This document shows positions 4,410-31,704 of a stretch of 32,000 bases of DNA, in pieces (positions within the stretch are counted from its first letter, which is position 1; every line of letters starts with the position of its first letter). The position numbers and the translations under genes are program-made. The notes beneath the pieces were generated by a model. The model did no database searches. It saw only the letters and a program-made list of their open reading frames with translations, and had not been told where the DNA came from. Origin of the DNA: Geotalea daltonii FRC-32 (GTDB taxonomy: Bacteria > Desulfobacterota > Desulfuromonadia > Geobacterales > Geobacteraceae); NCBI RefSeq assembly GCF_000022265.1, contig NC_011979.1:930001-962000 (forward strand). The letters are read 5' to 3'.

Positions 4410-5630
4410 CTACGCCGCCATGGCGGCGGGAAAAGTCAAGGTAATCGCGGCGCCCCGGCCGGGTTTGCCGGCCACGCCGATGGTGCCGCCGTGTTCCTCG
4501 ACGATCTTTTTGCAAATGGCGAGCCCGAGGCCTGTCCCTCTGGCTTTGGTGGTAAAAAACGGTTCAAAGATCCGCTCTGCTACTTCTTTGCCGATACCTG
4601 CTCCATTGTCGGTAATGACCATGGTCACCCCTGCCTGTGACCGATCGGCAACGATATCGACCATTCCCCCATGGGAAACGGCCTGTACAGCGTTCTGCAG
4701 CAGATTGAGCATCACCTGTCCAAGACGATCCCGGTCGCCACTTAGCCTCAAGTCTTCCGGGCATTTAATGGATATGATAACTCCTTTTGCTTCCACCTCT
4801 CCCCTGACCAGGGCAACAGCCCCTTCGATAAGGCCACATACCACGAAATCAGTTGCAGAAATCGGTCCACTGCGGGCATAGGAGAGGAGATTGAAGACCA
4901 GGCTTTCCAGTCGCAACGTTTCTGCGACGATCTTTCCGGCAAAGGCACTGTTTCGTTCATCCATCGGCTTTTTCCCGATCACCTGGGCGAAACCCTTGAT
5001 TCCTGCCAGGGGGTTTCTGATTTCGTGGGCGAGCATGGCGCCCATTTCTCCCAGCCTGGCAAGGTCTTTCCGGTGGGCCATTTCTCGCTGGTGTTGTTTT
5101 TCCCTGAGGGCGAAGCGGTAGATGACAGCGGAGAGGATCCAGCCGGCCATTAGCAGCGAAAAGAGGATCGCCATGTTGAGTTTCGCCTTGCGGATAACGG
5201 TGTCTGCCCGATAGGTATGGAGGGTGAGGTGCAGTTTAAGGGTGCTGCTCGGGAGGTGGATTGGGGTAATGTATTGGTAGGCTTTTTCTCCGGTGCCGAG
5301 GGTGACGCGGCTCTCACCGGTCTCGCCGGCTGCTGCGGGGCGAGGGGCTTCGACCGGTTGGCCGATCAGATCGGGGTTGGAGTGAAAGCGATAGATGCCT
5401 TTGTCGTCGGTCAGGGCGAGAAAGGCCATATCGGCAGGGTGGAGCCCCTCAAGCGTCTCCAGAGAGGGATCATGATAGACGATATTTTCCACGGCCGAGG
5501 TTATGGAGAGGGCGACGCCGCGAAGATTTTCTTCGGCAATGGCAGAAGCATCGTGATAATTGCGTACTGCAAACCAGCATAGTGACGTGGTCAAGACTAT
5601 ACCGACAAGCAGAACAACTCTTTTCAGCAT
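4410..5630 (-). CDS. Membrane sensor histidine kinase (two TM segments, ~150-aa periplasmic loop, HisKA and HATPase_c; ZraS/AtoS-like H-box)
   Basis: H-box is LAHEIRNPLAGIKGF, N-box is LLQNAVQA, G-boxes are DNGAGI and GTGLGL. N-terminal TM is VVLLVGIVLTTSLCWFAV and the second TM is AILFSLLMAGWILSAVIY. Confidence 0.9.
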   Translation of the reverse strand: MLKRVVLLVGIVLTTSLCWFAVRNYHDASAIAEENLRGVALSITSAVENIVYHDPSLETLEGLHPADMAFLALTDDKGIYRFHSNPDLIGQPVEAPRPAAAGETGESRVTLGTGEKAYQYITPIHLPSSTLKLHLTLHTYRADTVIRKAKLNMAILFSLLMAGWILSAVIYRFALREKQHQREMAHRKDLARLGEMGAMLAHEIRNPLAGIKGFAQVIGKKPMDERNSAFAGKIVAETLRLESLVFNLLSYARSGPISATDFVVCGLIEGAVALVRGEVEAKGVIISIKCPEDLRLSGDRDRLGQVMLNLLQNAVQAVSHGGMVDIVADRSQAGVTMVITDNGAGIGKEVAERIFEPFFTTKARGTGLGLAICKKIVEEHGGTIGVAGKPGRGAAITLTFPAAMAA

Positions 5631-22711: not shown

Positions 22712-22779
22712 TAAATAGTATTGGTTTAATTTAATGATTAATGTGCACATTCACCGCTGCTCCAGGAGGATGCTACAAG

Positions 22780-25701
22780 ATGCCGAAGATGACCAGGCGC
22801 AACTTTCTCTGGCTTACCGGCGGAACCGGCGTGGCGCTGGCCGTCGATCCTCCGCGCAAGCTGGTCAACAAGCTGATTCCTCAAGTCATCCCTCCAGAAA
22901 ATATAAAACCGGGCGAATGGGCCTTTTTTGCCACCACTTGCCGTGAATGCCCGGCCGGGTGCGGTATGCACCTCTGGCACCGGGATGGCCGGATCACCAA
23001 GGCGGAAGGCAACCCGGACCATCCGGTGAACCGGGGAGGCCTTTGCCCCCGGGGGCAGTCGGCGCTGCAGGGACTGTATGATCCGGACCGGCTGCAGAAA
23101 ATCAGCTTTCGTCCCCAGAGGTCCGGCAATGAAGCTGTCGGCTGGCATGACGCCATTGCCGCCATCGGCAGCCGGCTGAAAGCAGGGGGCCGGGTTGCCT
23201 TGATGAGCAGCCTGCAGACCGGGTCATTGGCCGAGGTGATGAAGCATTTTGCCGCCGCCTTCGGTTCGGACCGGCTGTTATTTTACGAAGCGTTCAGCTA
23301 TGAGCCGCTGAAAGCCGCCCACGGCGAAGTGTTTGGCTTGCCGCTGGTACCGCGGTACCAGATACAGGAATGTGAGTTGATCGTCAGTTTCGCTGCCGAC
23401 TTCCTGGAATCATGGATCTCTCCGGTCTCCTTTGCCTCGCAATTTGGGGAGATGCATGGCTACCGCAACAACAGAGTCATGAACCGCATGGTTTATATCG
23501 GGCCGCGTCTTTCCATGACCGCTGCCAACGCCGACGAGTTCATGCAGGTGCCACCGGGGGCCGAGCGGCTGGTGGCGCTGAAGATGCTCCGGATAATCCT
23601 GGAAAAGGACTTGGGGAAGAATAACCTCTCCTCCATCAGCCGCACCATCGAGCGCCTGGTCGCCGAAGCGCCCGAACTGCCCGGAGTGGAGGATGCCAGG
23701 CTTGTTGATCTTTGCCGCACCTTCTGCTCGGCACGATCAAGCGTCGCCCTGGCCGCACCGGTGGGAAGCACAGGGCCTATGGCTACGGAAACGGCAATTG
23801 TTGCCGCCTTGCTTAATTATGCCGCCGGCCGTATCGGCCAGACCGTGGATTTCAGCCGGCATCACGCTCTATCAGATGTTGCCGGTGATGGCCAGGTCCG
23901 CCGTTTCCTCGCCTCTCTCGGTCCTGACGACACACTCTTTATCCACGACACCAATCCCTTGTTCAGCAGGGGGGATGCGGCGCTTCCCATCAGTCGTGCC
24001 GGGATGATCGTCTATCTTGGGACGCTGGAAAATGAAACGGCTGCGGCCTCGGACTGGATCTTGCCCATTGATTGCCCTCTTGAAACGTGGGGTGACTATG
24101 AGCCGGAGCAGGGAATTCGGGGCCTCATGCAGCCCACCATGCCGCGTCTTTACGATACCCGTGCCGTCGGCGACATCTTTCTCACCCTTGCCCAGGCAGC
24201 AGGGCGGCCGCTGGCCAAACGGGAAGGGGGGGCTCCTGTCGCTTCCTTCAGGGAATGGCTTACTCTGCGCTGGCAGGAGTTGCACCATAAAATCAGCCCG
24301 GCCCAGCCTTTCGAAAACTTCTGGAAAAGTGCCCTCAGCCGGGGCGGGGTGTGGAGCAGGAAAGAGCCGGCGCCAAATGCGCAATTCAGTGCCACCGCTG
24401 TCGGTCGCCTGAGCCCGGAGGCAAAACAGCCGCGAGCGGAGGCAGGGGAGGTCCAGGTCTGGCCATGGGGATCCATAATGCTCTTTGACGGTCGGACTGC
24501 AAATCGGGGCTGGATTCAGGAGGCACCGGACCCGGTTACCTTTATTGCCTGGGGCAATTGGATCGATATCAATGGCCGCACAGCAGCTGATCTGGAGATA
24601 CAAGACGGCGAGATGGCCGAATTGAAGACCGGGACAGGGGCCATCCGCGCCCCGGTCAGGATTACCGATGAGGTAGCGGGGCAGACGGCGGCAATCGCCT
24701 TTGGCCAAGGGCACACCGCCATGGGCAGGATCGCCGGGGGCATCGGCGCCAATCCATTTCTGCTCCTGGGGGCTGGGGAGCGGGATGTTTCCTTTGCCAG
24801 GGGAACCTTGCGCAAGGTGGGAGGAAAACGGGTCAACGATCCCACCTACACGACCCTGACCCGGCAACAGTGGCATCGGGAGCTTGTCCAATGGATACCC
24901 CTGTCCCAGGTGAGCCGCATGGAGCCCGGGGACGGGGAAGAGCTGATCATGCCTCTTCCGGAGGGCTACAAACCGGAGCGGGACCTGTATCCCAAGCGGG
25001 AATATCTGACGCACCGTTGGGCAATGGTCATTGACCTGCAGCGTTGCATCGGCTGCGGCGCCTGCGCCGTTGCCTGTTACGCGGAAAATAATATTGCCGT
25101 CATCGGCAAGGGCAAGGTTGGCGAAGGCCGGGAGATGGCCTGGCTGCGGGTGGCTCCCTACCATAAGCCGGGAGCCACCCGCCGTCTCGGCTGGTTGCCC
25201 CTCCTTTGTCAACATTGCGACGCCGCCCCCTGCGAGCCGGTCTGTCCTGTCTTCGCCGCCATGCACAACGAAGAGGGACTCAACGCCCAGATCTACAACC
25301 GCTGCATCGGCACCCGTTACTGCTCCAATAACTGCCCCTACAAGGTGCGGCGCTTCAACTGGGTCAACATAAACTGGCGCAAACCGCTGGACATGCAGCT
25401 GAATCCGGAGGTGACGGTGCGCAGCCGCGGAGTGATGGAGAAGTGTACCTTTTGCGTCCAGCGGATCCGCAACGCCGAGGCCCATGCAGCACGGGAAAAC
25501 CGGAAGATCCTGGACGGGGAAATCCAGCCGGCATGCGCACAAAGCTGCCCCACCAGAGTCTATACCTTCGGCGACCTCCTGGATCCTGCATCGGAAGTGA
25601 GCAGGCTGACCCGCGAGGATCCCCGTCGCTATCATTTGCTGGAGGAACTGAACACCAAGCCGGCAGTGACCTTTCTGCGCCGGGTGGATGGTGATTGGTG
25701 A
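22780..25701 (+). CDS. actB: Alternative Complex III subunit ActB (Tat-exported molybdopterin-like domain fused to a 4-cluster ferredoxin domain)
   Basis: Start trimmed to ATG 22780, after AGGAGGA. Twin-arginine signal is MTRRNFLWLTGGTGVALAV. The N-terminal domain is MopB-like with CRECPAGC...GGLCPRG. C-terminal Fe-S motifs are CIGCGACAVAC, CQHCDAAPCEPVCP, CIGTRYCSNNCP and CTFC...CAQSCP. ActC/D/F/A genes follow. Confidence 0.85.
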   Translation: MPKMTRRNFLWLTGGTGVALAVDPPRKLVNKLIPQVIPPENIKPGEWAFFATTCRECPAGCGMHLWHRDGRITKAEGNPDHPVNRGGLCPRGQSALQGLYDPDRLQKISFRPQRSGNEAVGWHDAIAAIGSRLKAGGRVALMSSLQTGSLAEVMKHFAAAFGSDRLLFYEAFSYEPLKAAHGEVFGLPLVPRYQIQECELIVSFAADFLESWISPVSFASQFGEMHGYRNNRVMNRMVYIGPRLSMTAANADEFMQVPPGAERLVALKMLRIILEKDLGKNNLSSISRTIERLVAEAPELPGVEDARLVDLCRTFCSARSSVALAAPVGSTGPMATETAIVAALLNYAAGRIGQTVDFSRHHALSDVAGDGQVRRFLASLGPDDTLFIHDTNPLFSRGDAALPISRAGMIVYLGTLENETAAASDWILPIDCPLETWGDYEPEQGIRGLMQPTMPRLYDTRAVGDIFLTLAQAAGRPLAKREGGAPVASFREWLTLRWQELHHKISPAQPFENFWKSALSRGGVWSRKEPAPNAQFSATAVGRLSPEAKQPRAEAGEVQVWPWGSIMLFDGRTANRGWIQEAPDPVTFIAWGNWIDINGRTAADLEIQDGEMAELKTGTGAIRAPVRITDEVAGQTAAIAFGQGHTAMGRIAGGIGANPFLLLGAGERDVSFARGTLRKVGGKRVNDPTYTTLTRQQWHRELVQWIPLSQVSRMEPGDGEELIMPLPEGYKPERDLYPKREYLTHRWAMVIDLQRCIGCGACAVACYAENNIAVIGKGKVGEGREMAWLRVAPYHKPGATRRLGWLPLLCQHCDAAPCEPVCPVFAAMHNEEGLNAQIYNRCIGTRYCSNNCPYKVRRFNWVNINWRKPLDMQLNPEVTVRSRGVMEKCTFCVQRIRNAEAHAARENRKILDGEIQPACAQSCPTRVYTFGDLLDPASEVSRLTREDPRRYHLLEELNTKPAVTFLRRVDGDW

Positions 25702-25759
25702 TTGGTGATTGGTGGGGAGTGAGGAGTGAGGAGTGAGGAGTGAGGAGTGAGGAGTGAGG
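25690..25759 (+). repeat. Two adjacent heptanucleotide tandem arrays: (GGTGATT)x3 then (AGTGAGG)x6
   Basis: GGTGATT units start at 25690, 25697 and 25704, followed by a degenerate GGTGGGG. AGTGAGG units start at 25718, 25725, 25732, 25739, 25746 and 25753. The actB stop (25699-25701) lies in the first array. The second array ends about 15 nt before the probable actC start. Confidence 0.95.
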
Positions 25760-25774
25760 GGGTCTGGAGGTACT

Positions 25775-27649
25775 GTGGCCGATCTGAAGTACGGTGACAT
25801 AAACGATGATGTGCTGAACGCCATGCAGACGCCCCGGGCGCCTTATTTTGCCGCAGTTGCCCTGCTGGCGGCGGGCATCGGCTGGGGCGCGCTGGTCTGG
25901 CTTTACCAGATGCAGGCGGGGATGGGGGTCACCGGGCTGAACCGTCCGGTGGGCTGGGCCGTCTATATCGGCAATTTCGTCTTCTGGGTGGGAATAGCCC
26001 ACTCGGGGACGCTCATCTCGGCTATCCTGTACCTGTTGCGGGCCAACTGGCGGGATGCGGTCTCCCGCTCCTCCGAGGCCATGACCATCTTCGCCATCAT
26101 GACCGCCGGCCTGTTTCCTCTCATTCACCTGGGCAGGGTCTGGGTCCTTTACTACATCATTCCCTACCCGTCCCAGCGGCAGCTCTGGCCGAACTTCCTC
26201 AGCCCTCTCGTCTGGGACGTCTGCGCCGTTGGCACCTATTTCACCGTCAGTCTTATCTTCTGGCTGGTGGGTATGATTCCCGACCTGGCTGCTGCCCGGG
26301 ACCGTTACGAAGAAAAATACGGTCCTCAGAACATCCGTGCCAGTATCTACCGGATCATGGCCCTCGGCTGGTCGGGGACGGGAAACCAATGGCGCCATTA
26401 CGGCCGGTCCTATCTCTATTTTGCCGCCCTGGCCACCCCCCTGGTGATCTCGGTACACTCGGTCGTTTCCTGGGATTTCGCCATGAGCCTCCTCCCTGGC
26501 TGGCACTCCACAATATTTCCCCCCTATTTCGTGGCCGGGGCGATCCATTCCGGGCTGGCCATGGTGCTGACGCTCCTCATACCCATGCGCAAGCTGCTGC
26601 ATCTGGAGCGGCTGATCCAGCGCCACCATTTCGAGATGGTGGCCAAGACTATCATTCTCACTGCTGCCATCGTCGGCTATTCCTATGCCTGCGAGGTCTT
26701 CATCGCCTGGTACTCGGGCAATCCCTTCGAATGGCAATTCTACAAGTGGCGGATGACCGGGCCCGCAGCCTGGATCTTCTGGCTGATCATTCCCCTCAAT
26801 GTCCTCATCCCCCTGACGTTCGTCTTCAAAAAGGTGAGGACCAATTTCATTCTACTCTTCGTCATCTCGCTCCTTATCAACCTGGGAATGTGGCTGGAGC
26901 GCCTTTTCATCGTCTATACCTCCACTGCCCACGATTTTATTCCCCATAACTGGGGCGGTTATATCCCAACCTGGGTGGAAATAAGTATAACGGCGGCCTC
27001 GGCGGCCTTTTTCTTTTTCTGGTTTTTTGGTTTCAGCAAGATTCTGCCCACCGTTCCCCTGAGCGATCTCAAAGGGCGGATCGCCGACGAGGAGATCGAA
27101 CCGACCGGCTGCTGCGAAACCAAGGTCAGACAGAAAGTGCAGGGGGGAAGCTCGTCGGTGCTGGCGGTATTCTCCAACGCCGGAAGACTCGTGAAAGCGG
27201 TAAAGCTGGTCTGCGATGCGGGATACAGGGAGATGGAGACCTTTACCCCGGTGAAGGTCGAGGTGGTGGAAAAGGTAATGGGGCACCCGAAAAGCCCGGT
27301 GCGGTTCTGGACGCTGGCCGGGGCGCTGGCCGGTCTTGCCGGCGGATTGTGGCTTGCCGTAGGCACGGCCCTGGTCAATAGCATCATCGTCGGCGGCAAA
27401 CCCCCTGTCGCCATCATCCCCTATTGCGTCATCGCCTTCGAGGGGACGATCCTTCTGGGCAGCATCGCAAATTTGACAGGCCTGGTCCTGCATTCGCGCC
27501 TCTACCGGCTGAAGGTCAGTCCGTTCTACGACCGGCGCTTCAGTCGGGATAAATTCGGACTGCTGGTAAGCTGCGGCGAAGGGAATATCCAAAGTTTGCA
27601 GGGGATGCTTTCCAGCGCTGCAGCGGAGGAGATTCATGTCCACCACTGA
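25775..27649 (+). CDS. actCD: Fused ACIII subunits ActC (NrfD/PsrC-like quinol-interacting membrane subunit) and ActD (DUF3341)
   Basis: The NrfD-like multi-TM body begins ADLKYGDINDDVLNAM. The C-terminal ~170 aa match the ActD/DUF3341 pattern: VLAVFSNAGRLVKAVKLVCDAGYREMETFTPVKVE...GGKPPVAIIPYCVIAFEGTILLGS...RDKFGLLV. Start is uncertain: GTG 25775 after GGAGG is preferred, and the ORF-track GTG 25754 lies inside the repeat. Confidence 0.8.
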   Translation: MADLKYGDINDDVLNAMQTPRAPYFAAVALLAAGIGWGALVWLYQMQAGMGVTGLNRPVGWAVYIGNFVFWVGIAHSGTLISAILYLLRANWRDAVSRSSEAMTIFAIMTAGLFPLIHLGRVWVLYYIIPYPSQRQLWPNFLSPLVWDVCAVGTYFTVSLIFWLVGMIPDLAAARDRYEEKYGPQNIRASIYRIMALGWSGTGNQWRHYGRSYLYFAALATPLVISVHSVVSWDFAMSLLPGWHSTIFPPYFVAGAIHSGLAMVLTLLIPMRKLLHLERLIQRHHFEMVAKTIILTAAIVGYSYACEVFIAWYSGNPFEWQFYKWRMTGPAAWIFWLIIPLNVLIPLTFVFKKVRTNFILLFVISLLINLGMWLERLFIVYTSTAHDFIPHNWGGYIPTWVEISITAASAAFFFFWFFGFSKILPTVPLSDLKGRIADEEIEPTGCCETKVRQKVQGGSSSVLAVFSNAGRLVKAVKLVCDAGYREMETFTPVKVEVVEKVMGHPKSPVRFWTLAGALAGLAGGLWLAVGTALVNSIIVGGKPPVAIIPYCVIAFEGTILLGSIANLTGLVLHSRLYRLKVSPFYDRRFSRDKFGLLVSCGEGNIQSLQGMLSSAAAEEIHVHH

Positions 27650-28718
27650 CCGGCCAGGACAAAGCTTTGGTTATGCCTCCTTCTTCTGGGGGGGGCTTGC
27701 CATATGTGGTATCGGCCTCTGGGTGTTCTCAATCAATACGGCAGCGGCGCCCCAAGGCTGGCGGGCACTGCTTATCAATTTCCTCTTTTTCAGTTCCCTT
27801 GCCGGTGGGCTCACCACCTGGCCGGCGGTGGTGCGGGCCTGCAATGGACGGTGGCCCGGGGAGCTGGAGCGGGTGGCTTTCTCCGCCATTGCCTTTGCCG
27901 TTCCTTCGCTGCTGGCGTTGGTGCTGCTCTGGGTCGGCAGCAACAGGTGGTCTCCCTGGTACGACATCGAATATCACCAGGGTGGCTGGCTGAACAACTC
28001 CTTCGTCTTCGGCCGGGATCTGGCGGGGCTGGCGGTGTTCTGGCTGACCGCGGTCCGCTATCTCGTTGCCCGCCGCAACGGTCAGGGGAGTGTTTGGGGC
28101 GGCCTCCTCATTGTCACTTACAGCCTGGTTTTCTCCCTGCTCGGCTTTGATCTGGTGATGGCCCTTGATCCCGAATGGTACAGCACCCTGCTTGGGGGAT
28201 ATTTTTTCATCTCCGGCCTTTATATTGCCTCTGCCGCCTGGGCCTTTCTGGCCGTCTGGCAGCGGGAGACCCGGGAAGAGCAGCTGATGGACCTGGGGCG
28301 GCTGATAGTCGCCTTCAGCCTCATGGCCACCTATCTCATGTATGCCCATCTTCTCCCCATCTGGTACGAGAACCTGCCTGACGAAACCAGATTCCTGGCG
28401 CCAAGGCTCAATTTCCAACCCTGGCTGGGGGTGAGCTACCTCCTCCTGGGGCTTGTCTACCTGGGGCCGCTGGTGCTGCTTCTTACGGAGCGATCCAAGC
28501 GCAACCGCTGGTCCCTTGGGGGCATTTCCCTCCTTGTCCTCTGTGGCATGTGGATCGAACGCTGGTGGCTGGTAACCCCCGTTTTCGATAAAAACCTCAA
28601 TCTCGGCCTGGCTGAGCTTTCCGTGGCCATGGCCTTCGCCGGTCTGCTGGGTATGGGCATGGAGCAGTTCCAGCGTCGACTCCCGGCGAACTGTTTCCGG
28701 TCCGAGGATGAAAAGTGA
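27636..28718 (+). CDS. actF: ACIII second NrfD-like membrane subunit (ActF-like)
   Basis: 360-aa polytopic membrane protein. Its ATG follows GGAGGAG and overlaps the actCD end by 14 nt. Position and topology fit the second quinol-oxidoreductase membrane subunit of ACIII clusters. Confidence 0.7.
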   Translation: MSTTDRPGQSFGYASFFWGGLAICGIGLWVFSINTAAAPQGWRALLINFLFFSSLAGGLTTWPAVVRACNGRWPGELERVAFSAIAFAVPSLLALVLLWVGSNRWSPWYDIEYHQGGWLNNSFVFGRDLAGLAVFWLTAVRYLVARRNGQGSVWGGLLIVTYSLVFSLLGFDLVMALDPEWYSTLLGGYFFISGLYIASAAWAFLAVWQRETREEQLMDLGRLIVAFSLMATYLMYAHLLPIWYENLPDETRFLAPRLNFQPWLGVSYLLLGLVYLGPLVLLLTERSKRNRWSLGGISLLVLCGMWIERWWLVTPVFDKNLNLGLAELSVAMAFAGLLGMGMEQFQRRLPANCFRSEDEK

Positions 28719-29260
28719 GAATGCCGTGGCAGACGGAGAGAACCAGGAAACGAACCGGCCTGGCATCGGCATTGGCCGCAGTGGTAGTGCTGCTGCTGAC
28801 GGCGATCATGCTGGTGCTTTTCCATGTCGTGTACCCGGCCGGGCTCGGGCCGCGGCAGCCGATACCCTTCAGTCACCGGGTTCATGTGCATGTGAAAAAG
28901 ATCAGTTGCCTGATGTGCCATACGACGGTGATGGAAGGGCGACACGCCGGCATTCCGCCCCTGCAGACTTGCATGTTATGCCACCAGCGGATCATCAAGA
29001 CTTATCCGTACATTCTGGAGCTGCGGCAGACCTTTGCTAAAGGCAAGCCGGTCATTTGGCAGCGGGTCAACTGGGTGTCCGAATTCGTCTATTTCGATCA
29101 CTCGATGCATCTGCGCCAGGGGATCGACTGTAGTTACTGCCACGGCAATGTGACGATGATGGACCGGGTGGTGGCTGCGAGGAAGTTCGAGATGGGTTTC
29201 TGTATCGATTGTCATCGCCGGAAGAATGCTACGCACGACTGTTTTACCTGTCATAGGTGA
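28715..29260 (+). CDS. actA: Membrane-anchored pentahaem cytochrome c (ActA-like)
   Basis: Five CxxCH motifs: CLMCH, CMLCH, CSYCH, CIDCH, CFTCH. N-terminal anchor is LASALAAVVVLLLTAIMLVLF. GTG 28715 overlaps the actF stop; ATG 28721 is an alternative start. Confidence 0.85.
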   Translation: MRMPWQTERTRKRTGLASALAAVVVLLLTAIMLVLFHVVYPAGLGPRQPIPFSHRVHVHVKKISCLMCHTTVMEGRHAGIPPLQTCMLCHQRIIKTYPYILELRQTFAKGKPVIWQRVNWVSEFVYFDHSMHLRQGIDCSYCHGNVTMMDRVVAARKFEMGFCIDCHRRKNATHDCFTCHR

Positions 29261-29329: not shown

Positions 29330-30721
29330 ATGCCCAAATTCTTCGACAAACCCCAGAGCGCTTCACTGGCCTTCATGGTTGCCGGCGCCTTCTGGTTCGT
29401 GGTGGGGGCGCTCTACGGCATGATTTCGGCCATTCACCTGGTCTCGCCCGAGTTCTTGCCCAACGTTTCCTGGCTGGTTTTCGGCCGTGAGCGGCCGGTG
29501 CATGTGAACACCATGCTCTATGGTTTTGTCGGCACCATGCTTATCGGCTGCGGTCTCTATTATACCCCTGCTCTTTTGCGCACCAGGCTGTGGTCGGAGC
29601 GGCTGGCCTGGGCCAGCTTCTTCCTCTGGAACATCACCATCCTGAGTGGACCGTTGGGCTTTTCCTTCGGCCATACCCAGGGGCGGGAGTACAACGAATA
29701 TATCTGGAGCGCCGACATGATCCTGATGGTGGCGGTGCTGCTCCTCATCTGCAATGTGGTGATGACCATCGCCAACCGCACAGAAGAGCAGCTCTATGTT
29801 TCGGTCTGGTATTTCATGGCCACCTTTCTCTGGACGGCCGGCAATTATCCCTTGGGCAATGTCATGTGGCGTCCGGCTACAGGCGCCATGCCGGGGTTGA
29901 TCGACTCCCTTTTCCTCTGGTTCTGGGGGCACAATCTGCCGGGGCTCCTCATCACGCCTCTTGCCACCGGAGCAGCCTATTTCGTCATCCCGCGCATGGC
30001 CAGGACGCCGCTCAACTCCCATACCCTCTCACTGCTGGGCTTCTGGCTGCTCATCGCCCTCTATAGCCATATCGGCGGTCATCATGTGCTGCAGTCCCCC
30101 ATTCCCAACTGGCTGAAGGCGGTCTCGATTGTCGATTCGGTGGCCATGGTGGTTCCGGTCTCCATAGTGGTTCTCAATCTGTGGCTGACCGCCCGCCAGC
30201 GGGGAAGGCTCATCTGGGGAGACCCTGCAGCCCGGCTGATCATGGCGGGTATCGCCTGGTATCTCATCACCTGCATCCAGGGGCCGGTGCAGTCGCTTCC
30301 CTATCTGCAGCGGGTCACCCACTTCAATAATTGGACCGTCGGCCATGCCCATATTGCCATGCTCGGCTTCGGCGGCTATATCGCCCTCGGCGCCATGTAC
30401 CACATCCTGCCACTGGTGACGGGCCGCTGTATCTACTCGAACAGGCTGGTAAACCTCCAGTTCGGCCTCATCACCTTCGGCCTGACCGGCTTTTTCATCG
30501 TCCTCACCATCGCCGGCCTGATCCAGGGCAACGCCTGGAACAACGGCGAGACCGTCTATCGGGTGCTGCCCCAATTGGCCCCATACTTCATCTCACGGGC
30601 CGCACTGGGTGTGTTCATCCTGACCGGCGCCAGCGTCGGCTTTTACAACGTGGTGATGAGCATCCGAGCCGGTCGGGAGCTTTCAGTCGGTGAGCTGCAG
30701 CGGGCGGAGGAAGCGGCATGA
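29330..30721 (+). CDS. ccoN: cbb3-type cytochrome c oxidase subunit I (CcoN)
   Basis: 12-TM haem-copper oxidase pattern with WFWGHNLPG, HIGGHH and NWTVGHAHIAMLGFGG, as in C-family oxidases. A CcoO-type gene follows directly with an ATGA overlap. Confidence 0.85.
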   Translation: MPKFFDKPQSASLAFMVAGAFWFVVGALYGMISAIHLVSPEFLPNVSWLVFGRERPVHVNTMLYGFVGTMLIGCGLYYTPALLRTRLWSERLAWASFFLWNITILSGPLGFSFGHTQGREYNEYIWSADMILMVAVLLLICNVVMTIANRTEEQLYVSVWYFMATFLWTAGNYPLGNVMWRPATGAMPGLIDSLFLWFWGHNLPGLLITPLATGAAYFVIPRMARTPLNSHTLSLLGFWLLIALYSHIGGHHVLQSPIPNWLKAVSIVDSVAMVVPVSIVVLNLWLTARQRGRLIWGDPAARLIMAGIAWYLITCIQGPVQSLPYLQRVTHFNNWTVGHAHIAMLGFGGYIALGAMYHILPLVTGRCIYSNRLVNLQFGLITFGLTGFFIVLTIAGLIQGNAWNNGETVYRVLPQLAPYFISRAALGVFILTGASVGFYNVVMSIRAGRELSVGELQRAEEAA

Positions 30722-31704
30722 AGATGACCCCGGCCTTGCTCATCGTTGGGGCGCTGATGGTCTTCTGGGCCTCCACCTTCGTCATCATCGGCCTGCCGGT
30801 CATGACCATGAGCGATAAGCCTTCGGAGATCTGGCGGCCGATGACTTCGGCAGAGCGGGAAGGGCACCGCCTCTATGTGCAGAATGGCTGCAGTTACTGC
30901 CATTCTCTCTTTATCCGCATCAACGACTGGGACATTGGCGCTGAACGGATCGCCGAGAGCGGTGACTACGTAGCCCAGGAGCCTGCCATTCTCGGTAGTG
31001 AGCGCACCGGCCCCGATCTTTCTCAAGAAGGGGGGGAGCATTCCGATGACTGGCACAAGGCCCACTTCATCAATCCCCGTTACACCAGCCCCATTTCATT
31101 GATGCCGTCATGGGAGTTTCTTGGCGAGGAGAAGATCCGCAAACTGACGGCCTATATTCAGGCACTGGGGTGGAAGATGGCTGATGTGCGGGTCGCCCGC
31201 CAGCAACAGTGGAAGCAGCAGGCAGTTACCGCTTATGAATCCGGCGCCGATGCCAACATCAAGTGGCTGCACGGCCAGGTTCCCGTCGTCTGGCGACCGA
31301 TGCCCAACCCTTACCCAGCTTCGCCGGCGGCCCTGTTGCGGGGTAAACGGATCTACCAGGAGTTCTGCATCAACTGCCATGGTCCCATCGGTGACGGTAA
31401 GGGGCCTGCCGCCTCCCACCTCTACCCGCCGCCGCTGGATTTTACGACATTGAGGAGGCACCTGGAGGCCAACCGTTACATCGGCGGCATCTTCTACTAC
31501 CAGATCATGAACGGCATCACCGGCACCGCCATGCCCTACTTCAAGAAGCACCTGGAGTCGGAAAAGATCTGGGACCTGGCCAATTACCTGGGGGTGAGCT
31601 TTCTCGGCTATACGGATGCCAACATCGGGCCGCGGGGGATCGATGCCTCCTTTGAAGAGTTGTGGCGCAATCAATACCGTCCGCCGAGCAAAACGGGAGA
31701 GTGA
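30718..31704 (+). CDS. ccoO: cbb3 oxidase subunit II (CcoO) fused to an extra C-terminal monohaem cytochrome c domain (CcoP-like)
   Basis: The CcoO core is EREGHRLYVQNGCSYCHSLFIR...GPDLSQEGGEHSDDWHKAHFINPRYTSPISLMPSW. A second haem site CINCHGPIGDGKGPAA, with distal MPYF, lies in the C-terminal ~130 aa. Confidence 0.8.
   Translation: MKMTPALLIVGALMVFWASTFVIIGLPVMTMSDKPSEIWRPMTSAEREGHRLYVQNGCSYCHSLFIRINDWDIGAERIAESGDYVAQEPAILGSERTGPDLSQEGGEHSDDWHKAHFINPRYTSPISLMPSWEFLGEEKIRKLTAYIQALGWKMADVRVARQQQWKQQAVTAYESGADANIKWLHGQVPVVWRPMPNPYPASPAALLRGKRIYQEFCINCHGPIGDGKGPAASHLYPPPLDFTTLRRHLEANRYIGGIFYYQIMNGITGTAMPYFKKHLESEKIWDLANYLGVSFLGYTDANIGPRGIDASFEELWRNQYRPPSKTGE

What the first reader, a model, noticed from the sequence alone, without database searches (positions are those of the whole stretch)
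25690..25759. Heptanucleotide tandem arrays exactly at the actB stop / actC start junction
(GGTGATT)x3 is followed by (AGTGAGG)x6. Several properties stand out:
- The unit length is not a multiple of 3, so each array presents TGA in all three frames.
- The actB stop is the TGA of the second GGTGATT unit, so gain or loss of a unit would change the ActB C-terminus (currently ...VDGDW).
- The AGTGAGG array reads as five overlapping AGGAG Shine-Dalgarno-like sites at 7-nt spacing, each followed by a GTG.
- These create nested five-codon mini-ORFs (GTG AGG AGT GAG GAG TGA).
- Only the last GTG (25754) is in frame with actC.
- A separate GGAGG-N4-GTG (25775) is the likely genuine start.

Such a perfect microsatellite inside an essential-looking respiratory operon is unusual. 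It could act as a ribosome standby or re-initiation platform setting ActB:ActC stoichiometry. It could also be a slippage-prone, phase-variable switch.
Basis: seen in the sequence. Interest (0 to 1): 0.65.

Follow-up and report, generated by a model that had tools for sequence, protein, structure and literature searches.

The report
Hypervariable heptamer repeat between actB and actC
The 7-base repeats between two respiratory-complex genes are real and change copy number between near-identical strains, but they are an ordinary bacterial heptamer microsatellite placed where length changes alter neither protein, not a demonstrated gene switch.

Summary
Window 25683-25759 is one continuous 11-unit, period-7 array in a single register: GGTGGAT, (GGTGATT)x3, GGTGGGG, (AGTGAGG)x6. 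It overlaps the actB stop (TGA 25699-25701) and ends 15 nt before the actC start (GGAGG 25766-25770, GTG 25775).

The array is slippage-prone:
- A 99.5%-identical strain has x2 and x5 units plus a 33-nt palindromic insert.
- Geotalea toluenoxydans (97% identical) has about x5 GGTGATT-type units, then an octamer (GGTGACCG)x6, in a 451-nt gap.
- Geotalea sp. SG265 (79%) has a degenerate RGTGARG array.
- More distant Geobacteraceae carry unrelated palindromes at the same junction.

It is not a coding switch. With two or more GGTGATT units the ActB tail is always VDGDW*. TGA occurs in every frame. actC keeps its own Shine-Dalgarno site and start codon outside the array. The Shine-Dalgarno-like sequence is not conserved in G. 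toluenoxydans, which argues against a required ribosome platform.

AGTGAGG arrays are common across many phyla (120 or more loci found). Heptameric repeats that sit on stop codons between co-directional genes are already described (STRR, Rehm 2015, MacGregor 2015, Aklujkar 2009).

Verdict: a new member of a known kind, most likely near-neutral, with a possible weak effect on translation. Interest is low to moderate.

The parts
22780..25701 (+). actB. Encodes the fused molybdopterin-like and 4Fe-4S subunit of alternative complex III. The longest ORF starts at 22741; the database protein P0001 (973 aa) starts at 22780.
   Evidence: Pfam domains found: Molybdop_Fe4S4, Fer4_11 and Molydop_binding. 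P0001 is 100% identical.
25683..25689 (+). Unit 0, GGTGGAT. A degenerate first unit made of the conserved codons (G)GTG GAT (V-D) at the ActB C-terminus; the likely seed of the array.
   Evidence: The ActB consensus ends ...FLRRVD in 40 homologues.
25690..25710 (+). (GGTGATT)x3. A perfect heptamer array that encodes G-D-W and holds the actB stop.
   Evidence: There are 2 copies in L215 and about 5 in G. toluenoxydans.
25699..25701 (+). actB stop codon TGA, inside the second GGTGATT unit.
   Evidence: It does not move when copy number changes, as long as two or more units remain.
25711..25717 (+). Bridging unit GGTGGGG, in the same 7-nt register.
   Evidence: Also present in L215.
25718..25759 (+). 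(AGTGAGG)x6. A perfect heptamer array with five AGGAG motifs, six GTGs, and TGA in all three frames.
   Evidence: L215 has x5. G. toluenoxydans has (GGTGACCG)x6 in its place. SG265 has degenerate RGTGARG units. Predicted unpaired in the mRNA.
25766..25770 (+). Shine-Dalgarno site GGAGG of actC, 4 nt upstream of the start and outside the array.
   Evidence: An equivalent GGAGG or GGGGG at N4-5 before the start is present in all Geobacteraceae orthologues.
25775..27649 (+). actC-actD fusion gene (an NrfD-like membrane subunit joined to ActD). Starts at GTG 25775.
   Evidence: Pfam NrfD plus ActD. The start aligns with the orthologous starts, which read V/M-[AS]-D-L-K-Y-G-D.

Best explanation
This is a compound heptanucleotide microsatellite, a simple-sequence repeat of the heptameric, STRR-like class.

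**Origin and turnover (inferred).** It grew by replication slippage out of the last conserved codons of actB (..GTG GAT GG..) and the stop/Shine-Dalgarno region. It now turns over quickly in the actB-actC intercistronic spacer of the Geotalea lineage.

**Why it persists (partly shown).** The position is almost immune to its instability.
- Each unit carries TGA and 7 is not a multiple of 3, so any three units stop all three frames. ActB therefore always terminates within a few non-conserved residues.
- actC has its own Shine-Dalgarno site and start codon downstream of the array.
- Expansion, contraction and even unit replacement therefore change only the length and sequence of an untranslated spacer.

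**Shown versus inferred.**
- Shown: the anatomy, the strain-to-strain variation, the invariance of both ORFs, and the wide occurrence of the same repeat elsewhere.
- Inferred: the slippage origin and near-neutrality. In this allele the unstructured, purine-rich AGGAG tract may modestly raise or buffer actC initiation (ribosome standby or retention), but that is not its reason for being there.
For: **Anatomy.**

**Variation among relatives**
- L215: 99.46% nucleotide identity over 8.9 kb. It carries (GGTGATT)2 GGTGGGG (AGTGAGG)5 plus a 33-nt palindromic insert.
- G. toluenoxydans, two assemblies, 97% identity: about five GGTGATT-type units, then (GGTGACCG)x6, in a 451-nt gap.
- Geotalea sp. SG265, 79% nucleotide identity: AGTGAAG, AGTGAGGx2, GGTGAGGx2, in a 37-nt gap.

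**The junction is permissive.** More distant Geobacteraceae have 70-327-nt gaps filled with unrelated palindromes. Most other ACIII operons have gaps of 0-50 nt.

**The coding sequences are protected.**
- In the simulation the ActB tail stays VDGDW* for every allele with two or more first-array units, and the actC frame is unaffected.
- The ActB tails actually seen are VDGDW, VDGDL and VDGEE, following the conserved RRVD.

**No sign of a structured or transcriptional element.** There is no hairpin, terminator, strong promoter, G-quadruplex or Rfam family.

**The repeat is generic.**
- The same AGTGAGG array is found in at least 120 loci in many phyla, often compound with other heptamers and often abutting the stop of an upstream same-strand ORF.
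[quoted passage not shown] Seven-bp STRRs lie between hupS and hupL (PMC2670836). Tandem heptanucleotide families exist in G. metallireducens (PMC2700814).
Against: - An array has been kept at exactly this junction since SG265 diverged from the window lineage (79% nucleotide identity), although the sequence turns over. It is the only period-7 or period-8 array of three or more units in about 94 kb of Geobacteraceae sequence examined. That persistence could reflect selection rather than neutrality.
- All unit types share an RGTGA core. They rank in the top 0.1-3% of heptamer arrays for complementarity to the generic 16S 3' tail, except AGTGAAG at about 10%. This is compatible with a ribosome-related role.
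- No expression or read-level data could be examined.
- The source genome could not be scanned for further copies.
Confidence: 0.7

Rival explanations
1. Translational tuning element. The unstructured tract of Shine-Dalgarno-like units complementary to the 16S tail (GGUGAU, AGGAG) holds post-termination or free 30S subunits near the actC start, acting as a standby or re-initiation platform. Copy number would then set the ActB:ActC(D) ratio quantitatively, making this a tunable contingency locus rather than an on/off switch.
For: - There are five AGGAG motifs, each 6 nt before a GTG.
- The array is predicted to be single-stranded.
- Predicted duplex energies with the generic anti-Shine-Dalgarno tail are -10 to -16 kcal/mol. 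This puts the window's units in the top 0.1-3% of all heptamer arrays.
- In SG265 the last unit itself supplies the Shine-Dalgarno site (GAGGGGG-cacc-GTG).
- An array has persisted at this junction across the Geotalea clade.
- A translational role has been proposed for other heptamer repeats (PMC4679880, PMC2670836).
Against: - The Shine-Dalgarno-like sequence is not conserved. G. toluenoxydans has (GGTGACCG)x6, which lacks AGGAG, and 451 nt between the actB stop and the actC start, including palindromes.
- L215 has a 33-nt palindrome between the array and the Shine-Dalgarno site.
- Every orthologue keeps an independent canonical Shine-Dalgarno site and start.
- The complementarity argument is post hoc, and the 16S tail of this organism was not checked.
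- No functional data are available.
Confidence: 0.17
2. Classical phase-variable (on/off) contingency switch. Slippage would change the reading frame or the Shine-Dalgarno/promoter spacing, turning ActB or ActC on and off.
For: - Copy number does vary between near-identical strains.
- The unit length is not a multiple of 3.
Against: - In the simulation of all alleles, the ActB tail is invariant when two or more first-array units remain. ActB still ends within the array whenever the second array keeps three or more units; with no GGTGATT unit left, a single AGTGAGG unit already suffices.
- The actC Shine-Dalgarno site and start lie outside the array and are untouched.
- No promoter hexamers flank the array.
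- All natural alleles keep both ORFs intact.
Confidence: 0.02
3. Binding array for a sequence-specific DNA- or RNA-binding protein (for example a global regulator, CsrA, a cold-shock protein or an S1-type protein). Such roles were proposed for tandem heptanucleotide families in G. metallireducens and for TAACTGA repeats in Beggiatoaceae. The array would be one site in a regulon.
For: - Precedents exist as proposals (PMC2700814, PMC4679880).
- The GGA motifs are regularly spaced.
- Across other genomes the same heptamer lies on the sense strand of its neighbouring genes about 90 times against 50 antisense.
Against: - Only one such array is present in the 32-kb window and in about 94 kb of related loci.
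- The unit sequence is replaced between strains that are 97% identical, which is hard to reconcile with a specific binding site.
- No binding protein is known.
- The source genome could not be scanned.
Confidence: 0.06
4. mRNA stability or processing element. On this view the array works as intercistronic REP hairpins do, or as proposed for the hairpin-forming STRRs between hupS and hupL, protecting the upstream actB message or marking a processing site.
For: - The relatives carry real palindromes at this junction (L204, L205, L208, L210, L212, L215).
- In other genomes AGTGAGG arrays often sit just before terminator-like hairpins.
Against: In the window the array has no inverted partner, is predicted unpaired, and the region folds no better than shuffled sequence (z = +0.86). 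No terminator was found.
Confidence: 0.05

Closest known systems
Heptameric simple-sequence repeats of bacteria, as characterised by Rehm et al. 2015 (GGGAATC in Xanthomonas; GGGGA(C/T)T in Nostoc). PMC4692102.
   Same: - The unit is 7 nt.
- Copy number runs from 2 to 26 and is variable.
- The repeats are over-represented between co-directional ORFs.
[quoted passage not shown]
- One example lies inside an operon, between pecE and pecF.
- They are transcribed.
   Different: - The unit sequence differs.
- The G tracts here are only two Gs long, and no G-quadruplex is predicted, so the G4 rationale of that class does not apply.
- Whether the repeat is dispersed within this genome is unknown.
Cyanobacterial STRR (short tandemly repeated repetitive) heptamers, for example in the hupS-hupL intergenic region. 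PMC2670836 and the references cited there.
   Same: - Seven-bp tandem units sit in the spacer between two subunit genes of one redox-enzyme operon.
- Their function is unknown.
- Transcript stability or translational coupling has been proposed.
   Different: - The hupS-hupL STRRs can form a hairpin; this array cannot.
- The phylum is different.
- The unit sequences are different.
Tandem heptanucleotide families of Geobacter metallireducens: GGGACCG x4 at 49 loci and MTYCTGA x5. Aklujkar 2009, PMC2700814.
   Same: - The bacterial family is the same (Geobacteraceae).
- They are short tandem heptamer arrays lying between or within genes.
- A regulatory role has been proposed but not tested.
   Different: - The consensus sequences are different.
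- Those are fixed-number (4-5 units) multicopy elements.
- This one is a single, length-variable locus as far as could be seen.
TAACTGA direct repeats of Beggiatoaceae, cyanobacteria and Bacteroidetes. MacGregor 2015, PMC4679880.
   Same: - The heptamer contains TGA, so it gives stops in all three forward frames and can overlap the end of a gene only slightly.
- It lies in forward orientation between genes, close to the downstream start codon.
- It is not predicted to fold.
   Different: - The sequence is different.
- TAACTGA repeats replace the ribosome-binding site and have no complementarity to 16S rRNA.
- Here a canonical Shine-Dalgarno site follows the array, and the units themselves are Shine-Dalgarno-like.
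SSR-based phase-variation (contingency) loci of Haemophilus and Neisseria.
   Same: It is a hypermutable tandem repeat whose unit length is not a multiple of 3, and copy number differs between strains.
   Different: The repeat lies neither inside the body of an ORF nor between promoter or Shine-Dalgarno elements. Changing its length has no on/off consequence.

Membership tests
Bacterial heptameric SSR / STRR-like tandem repeats | Head-to-tail tandem copies of a 7-nt unit, three or more copies | tested here: met
   Tandem Repeats Finder reports period 7 with 3.7 and 6.9 copies at 97-100% match. There are 11 units in one register.
Bacterial heptameric SSR / STRR-like tandem repeats | [quoted passage not shown] | tested here: met
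   The array overlaps the actB stop at 25699-25701 and ends 15 nt before the actC start, on the sense strand.
Bacterial heptameric SSR / STRR-like tandem repeats | Copy number variable between related genomes | tested here: met
   Copy numbers are 3/6 in the window, 2/5 in L215, and about 5 plus an octamer x6 in G. toluenoxydans.
Bacterial heptameric SSR / STRR-like tandem repeats | Same unit dispersed at many loci of the same genome | not testable with these tools
   Only this one array is present in the 32-kb window. The same unit is dispersed across many other genomes.
G-quadruplex-forming heptamer repeats (Rehm 2015 subclass) | Four or more G tracts of at least 3 Gs; predicted or measured G4 | tested here: not met
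   The G tracts are GG only. ViennaRNA with the G-quadruplex option finds no G4 in the array (-0.4 kcal/mol).
Hairpin-forming STRR / REP-type intercistronic palindromes | Inverted repeat able to form a stable stem-loop | tested here: not met
   There is no complementary arm within 400 nt. The array is unpaired in the minimum-energy fold, with z = +0.86 against shuffles.
Phase-variation contingency locus | Unit gain or loss shifts an ORF, or changes promoter or Shine-Dalgarno spacing, so that expression switches on or off | tested here: not met
   The simulation of alleles shows the ActB tail and the actC frame and Shine-Dalgarno spacing unchanged. No promoter flanks the array.
Phase-variation contingency locus | Copy-number heterogeneity within one population | not testable with these tools
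Two assemblies of G. toluenoxydans agree with each other. Short-read contigs break inside the array.
Ribosome standby site / translational enhancer | Unstructured tract next to the ribosome-binding site | tested here: met
   The array is predicted single-stranded and ends 6 nt before GGAGG.
Ribosome standby site / translational enhancer | Feature conserved in orthologues and required for downstream translation | tested here: inconclusive
   An array is kept in four Geotalea genomes. However, its Shine-Dalgarno-like sequence is lost in G. toluenoxydans, and palindromes are inserted between the array and the Shine-Dalgarno site. Whether it is required cannot be tested here.

The most novel reading that the evidence does not exclude
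The Geotalea junction array could be a tunable ribosome-tethering tract.

- Every unit type found there (GGTGATT, GGTGGGG, AGTGAGG, GGTGAGG, GGTGACCG) keeps an RGTGA core complementary to the UCAC(C)/CCUCC end of 16S rRNA.
- Terminating or free small subunits would therefore be held between actB and actC.
- Slippage-driven copy number would then act as a heritable, quantitative dial on expression of the membrane subunit of alternative complex III.
- More broadly, the pan-bacterial AGTGAGG-type arrays that sit on stop codons would share this ribosome-related role.
Probability: 0.08. Interest if true: 0.6.

Novelty: new member of a known kind. Interest (0 to 1): 0.3.

Why it matters
- It removes a tempting but unsupported story, phase variation of a respiratory complex, and replaces it with a documented case of how a hypermutable repeat can live harmlessly inside an operon. 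Stop codons in all three frames protect the upstream protein, and a separate Shine-Dalgarno site protects the downstream one.
- The four-genome allelic series (2/5, 3/6, about 5 plus an octamer x6, and a degenerate array) is a ready-made natural experiment. It could test whether heptamer repeats at stop codons, which are over-represented in many bacteria and still lack a known function, affect translation of the next gene.
- Practically, the locus breaks short-read assemblies. It could also serve as a strain marker for Geotalea daltonii and G. toluenoxydans.

Tried and rejected
- **Exact look-up of the 986-aa ORF.** Nothing was found. The catalogued protein starts 13 codons later (P0001).
- **Genome-collection scan for the AGTGAGG array.** None of those loci is an actB-actC junction.
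- **Short-read Logan contigs.** L001, L002, L209, L211, L213 and L214 end inside the junction repeats, so they give no copy number.
- **Hairpin, terminator, promoter, Rfam family and G-quadruplex.** All negative.
- **REP-like palindromes of the relatives.** They are absent from the window.
- **Programmed frameshift or read-through at the actB UGA.** Considered and rejected: every frame meets another TGA within two units, so no extended product is possible.
- **Antisense ORFs across the array (23872-25824 and 25364-26737 on the minus strand).** Rejected as spurious, because they overlap the well-supported actB and actC genes.
- **Orientation statistics of AGTGAGG arrays in other genomes.** Only indicative: ORFs were called crudely, and sense-strand ORFs are ended by the array by construction.
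Full report
**What is in the sequence**

Reading 25500-25950 shows ...CGG GTG GAT GGT GAT TGG TGA, followed by the repeats. In a single 7-nt register starting at 25683 the units are:
- GGTGGAT (25683-25689)
- GGTGATT x3 (25690-25710)
- GGTGGGG (25711-25717)
- AGTGAGG x6 (25718-25759)

After the array come GGGTCT, GGAGG (25766-25770), TACT and GTG (25775). Tandem Repeats Finder reports the two perfect blocks as the strongest tandem repeats in the window (scores 52 and 89). Two-unit probes match only here, against 0.01-0.03 matches expected by chance.

**Gene context**

- ORF 22741/22780-25701 is ActB, the fused molybdopterin-like and 4Fe-4S subunit.
- ORF 25775-27649 is an ActC-ActD fusion (Pfam NrfD plus ActD).
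- Downstream lie a 360-aa ORF with no family hit, a QrcA-like multihaem cytochrome, and the cbb3 oxidase genes ccoN and ccoO/P.
- The source is a Geobacteraceae genome. The window's ActB is P0001, which lies on a 4,304,501-bp contig. Its 90%-identity cluster holds Geotalea toluenoxydans proteins, and the next named relative is Geotalea sp. SG265 at 81%.

**Start and stop assignments**

- The actB stop is the TGA in the second GGTGATT unit.
- The conserved ActB C-terminus ends ...FLRRVD in 40 homologues. Only the last 3-4 non-conserved residues are therefore encoded by the array.
- actC starts at GTG 25775. The orthologues start at the aligned codon, with N-termini V/M-[AS]-D-L-K-Y-G-D and an ATG in L204. 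Each has GGAGG or GGGGG 4-5 nt upstream.

**Comparison with relatives (the main result)**

| Genome | Identity to window | Junction content | Gap (nt) |
|---|---|---|---|
| Window | n/a | GGTGGAT (GGTGATT)3 GGTGGGG (AGTGAGG)6 | 73 |
| L215, metagenome contig | 99.46% nt over 8.9 kb | GGTGGAT (GGTGATT)2 GGTGGGG (AGTGAGG)5, then a 33-nt palindromic insert before the Shine-Dalgarno site | 92 |
| G. toluenoxydans, two assemblies (L212, L216) | 97% nt | ActB tail VDGDL*; about five GGTGATT-type units; an octamer (GGTGACCG)x6; one GGTGAGG; REP-like palindromes; a duplicated copy of the first ~70 nt of actC | 451 |
| Geotalea sp. SG265 | 79% nt, 81% ActB | ActB tail VDGEE*; AGTGAAG, AGTGAGGx2, GGTGAGGx2, with the last unit serving as the Shine-Dalgarno site | 37 |
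| More distant Geobacteraceae (L204, L205-7, L208, L210, L124) | lower | No heptamer array; unrelated GC-rich palindromes | 70-327 |
| 80 metagenomic ACIII loci | distant | Mostly plain spacers; two carry unrelated tandem repeats (L142, L197) | mostly 0-50 |

The junction is thus a permissive hot spot for repeats in Geobacteraceae. The heptamer array is a Geotalea-specific occupant that turns over fast. Between the window and L215, the junction holds the only length differences larger than 1 nt in 8.9 kb.

**Consequences of slippage**

I rebuilt the junction with 0-6 GGTGATT units and 0-9 AGTGAGG units.
- With two or more first-array units, ActB always ends VDGDW*.
- With one or none, it still ends inside the array whenever three or more second-array units remain (with none, one second-array unit is already enough).
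- The actC Shine-Dalgarno site, start and frame are never touched. Only the stop-to-start distance changes, in steps of 7 nt.

An on/off phase switch is not supported. Frameshifting or read-through at the UGA cannot give a longer product, because every frame meets another TGA within two units.

**Structure and signals**

- The mRNA fold leaves the AGTGAGG tract fully unpaired, and the region folds no better than shuffled sequence (z = +0.86).
- There is no inverted partner, no terminator and only one weak promoter-like match.
- No Rfam family matches, and no G-quadruplex is predicted.
- The tract is Shine-Dalgarno-like. Arrays of GGUGAUU, AGUGAGG, GGUGAGG and GGUGGGG rank in the top 3.0%, 1.6%, 0.4% and 0.1% of all heptamer arrays for predicted pairing with a generic 16S 3' tail. 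This observation is post hoc, and the tail sequence comes from general knowledge rather than from this genome.

**How common the repeat is**

The hits span Planctomycetota, cyanobacteria, Campylobacterota, Bacteroidota, Clostridia, Gemmatimonadota, Proteobacteria and several Desulfuromonadales.
- The arrays have 3-17 units. They are often compound with other heptamers: for example (GGTGAAT)n followed by (GTGAGGA)4 in L051, the same architecture as here. They are often followed by reverse-complement heptamers or by terminator-like hairpins.
- About a third begin within 20 nt of the end of an upstream same-strand ORF, and sense orientation outnumbers antisense by about 90 to 50. This is a crude ORF-based count, partly biased because the array itself ends sense ORFs.
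- Within about 94 kb of Geobacteraceae sequence in hand, the actB-actC junction holds the only period-7 or period-8 arrays of three or more units.

**Literature**

- Heptameric SSRs are over-represented in many bacterial genomes. In Xanthomonas and Nostoc they vary from 2 to 26 units, lie mostly between aligned ORFs, and on the coding strand lie within 50 bp of or over the stop codon. One example sits between pecE and pecF (PMC4692102).
- Seven-bp STRRs lie between hupS and hupL in cyanobacteria. Roles in transcript stability or translational coupling have been proposed but not shown (PMC2670836).
- TAACTGA repeats share the property of stopping all three forward frames and lie just upstream of start codons (PMC4679880).
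- G. metallireducens has its own tandem heptanucleotide families (PMC2700814).

**Interpretation**

The best-supported reading (confidence about 0.7) is a compound heptanucleotide microsatellite. It was seeded from the terminal actB codons and the stop/Shine-Dalgarno region, and it persists because the site buffers its instability. Any effect on actC translation is secondary and not conserved.

The main rival (about 0.17) is a quantitative translational tuning tract. On/off phase variation (about 0.02), a protein-binding array (about 0.06) and an mRNA stability element (about 0.05) are less likely, for the reasons given under each.

The feature is a new member of a known kind.

Noticed in passing
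L212 5922-6374 (and L216 5193-5640): The G. toluenoxydans actB-actC gap is 451 nt. It holds an octamer array (GGTGACCG)x6 and two copies of a ~200-nt block made of GC-rich palindromes. The first copy is followed by a duplicate of the first ~70 nt of actC, and the second by actC itself.
   Followed up: partly
L215 5960-5992: A strain 99.5% identical to the window has a 33-nt palindromic insert (cccctctcccctatggaataggggggattgagg) between the heptamer array and the actC Shine-Dalgarno site. The core CCCCTATGGAATAGGGGGG also occurs twice in L212 and is absent from the window.
   Followed up: partly
L026, L037, L100, L106, L121, L032 (array positions as listed): In gut Firmicutes and Bacteroidota MAGs, AGTGAGG arrays are followed within about 10 nt by a GC-rich hairpin with a similar A/T-rich loop (..GGTGCGCCGC atcaattcatata GCGGCGC..). 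No Rfam family matches.
   Followed up: no
L051 7660-7720 (minus strand); also L054 and L064: These are compound arrays in which (GGTGAAT)n or (GTGGATA)n directly adjoin (GTGAGGA)n. The architecture is the same as the window's GGTGATT plus AGTGAGG pair, but the bacteria are unrelated.
   Followed up: no
L142 and L197, actB-actC junctions: Distant ACIII operons carry unrelated tandem repeats at the same junction: GCATTTAAG-like x5 in L142 and TGGAAAN x4 in L197.
   Followed up: no
window 25775-27649 and 27636-29260: - ActC and ActD are fused in one 624-aa protein (631 aa when read from the upstream in-frame GTG 25754).
- The next ORF (360 aa, 27636-28718) has no Pfam or NCBIfam hit.
- The only multihaem cytochrome (QrcA-like, 28715-29260) lies downstream, and there is no actA upstream of actB.
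- The cluster runs straight into the cbb3 oxidase genes (29330-31704).
   Followed up: partly
L001/L002 (end at 5466), L209, L211, L213/L214: Short-read (Logan) contigs of three different species all stop 26-44 nt after the actB stop. The junction repeats systematically break de Bruijn assemblies.
   Followed up: yes
window 25683-25759; L003, L212, L215 junctions: All unit types at the Geotalea junction share an RGTGA core. Most rank in the top 0.1-3% of heptamer arrays for predicted pairing with a generic 16S rRNA 3' tail. This is a post hoc observation, and the 16S tail of the organism was not checked.
   Followed up: partly
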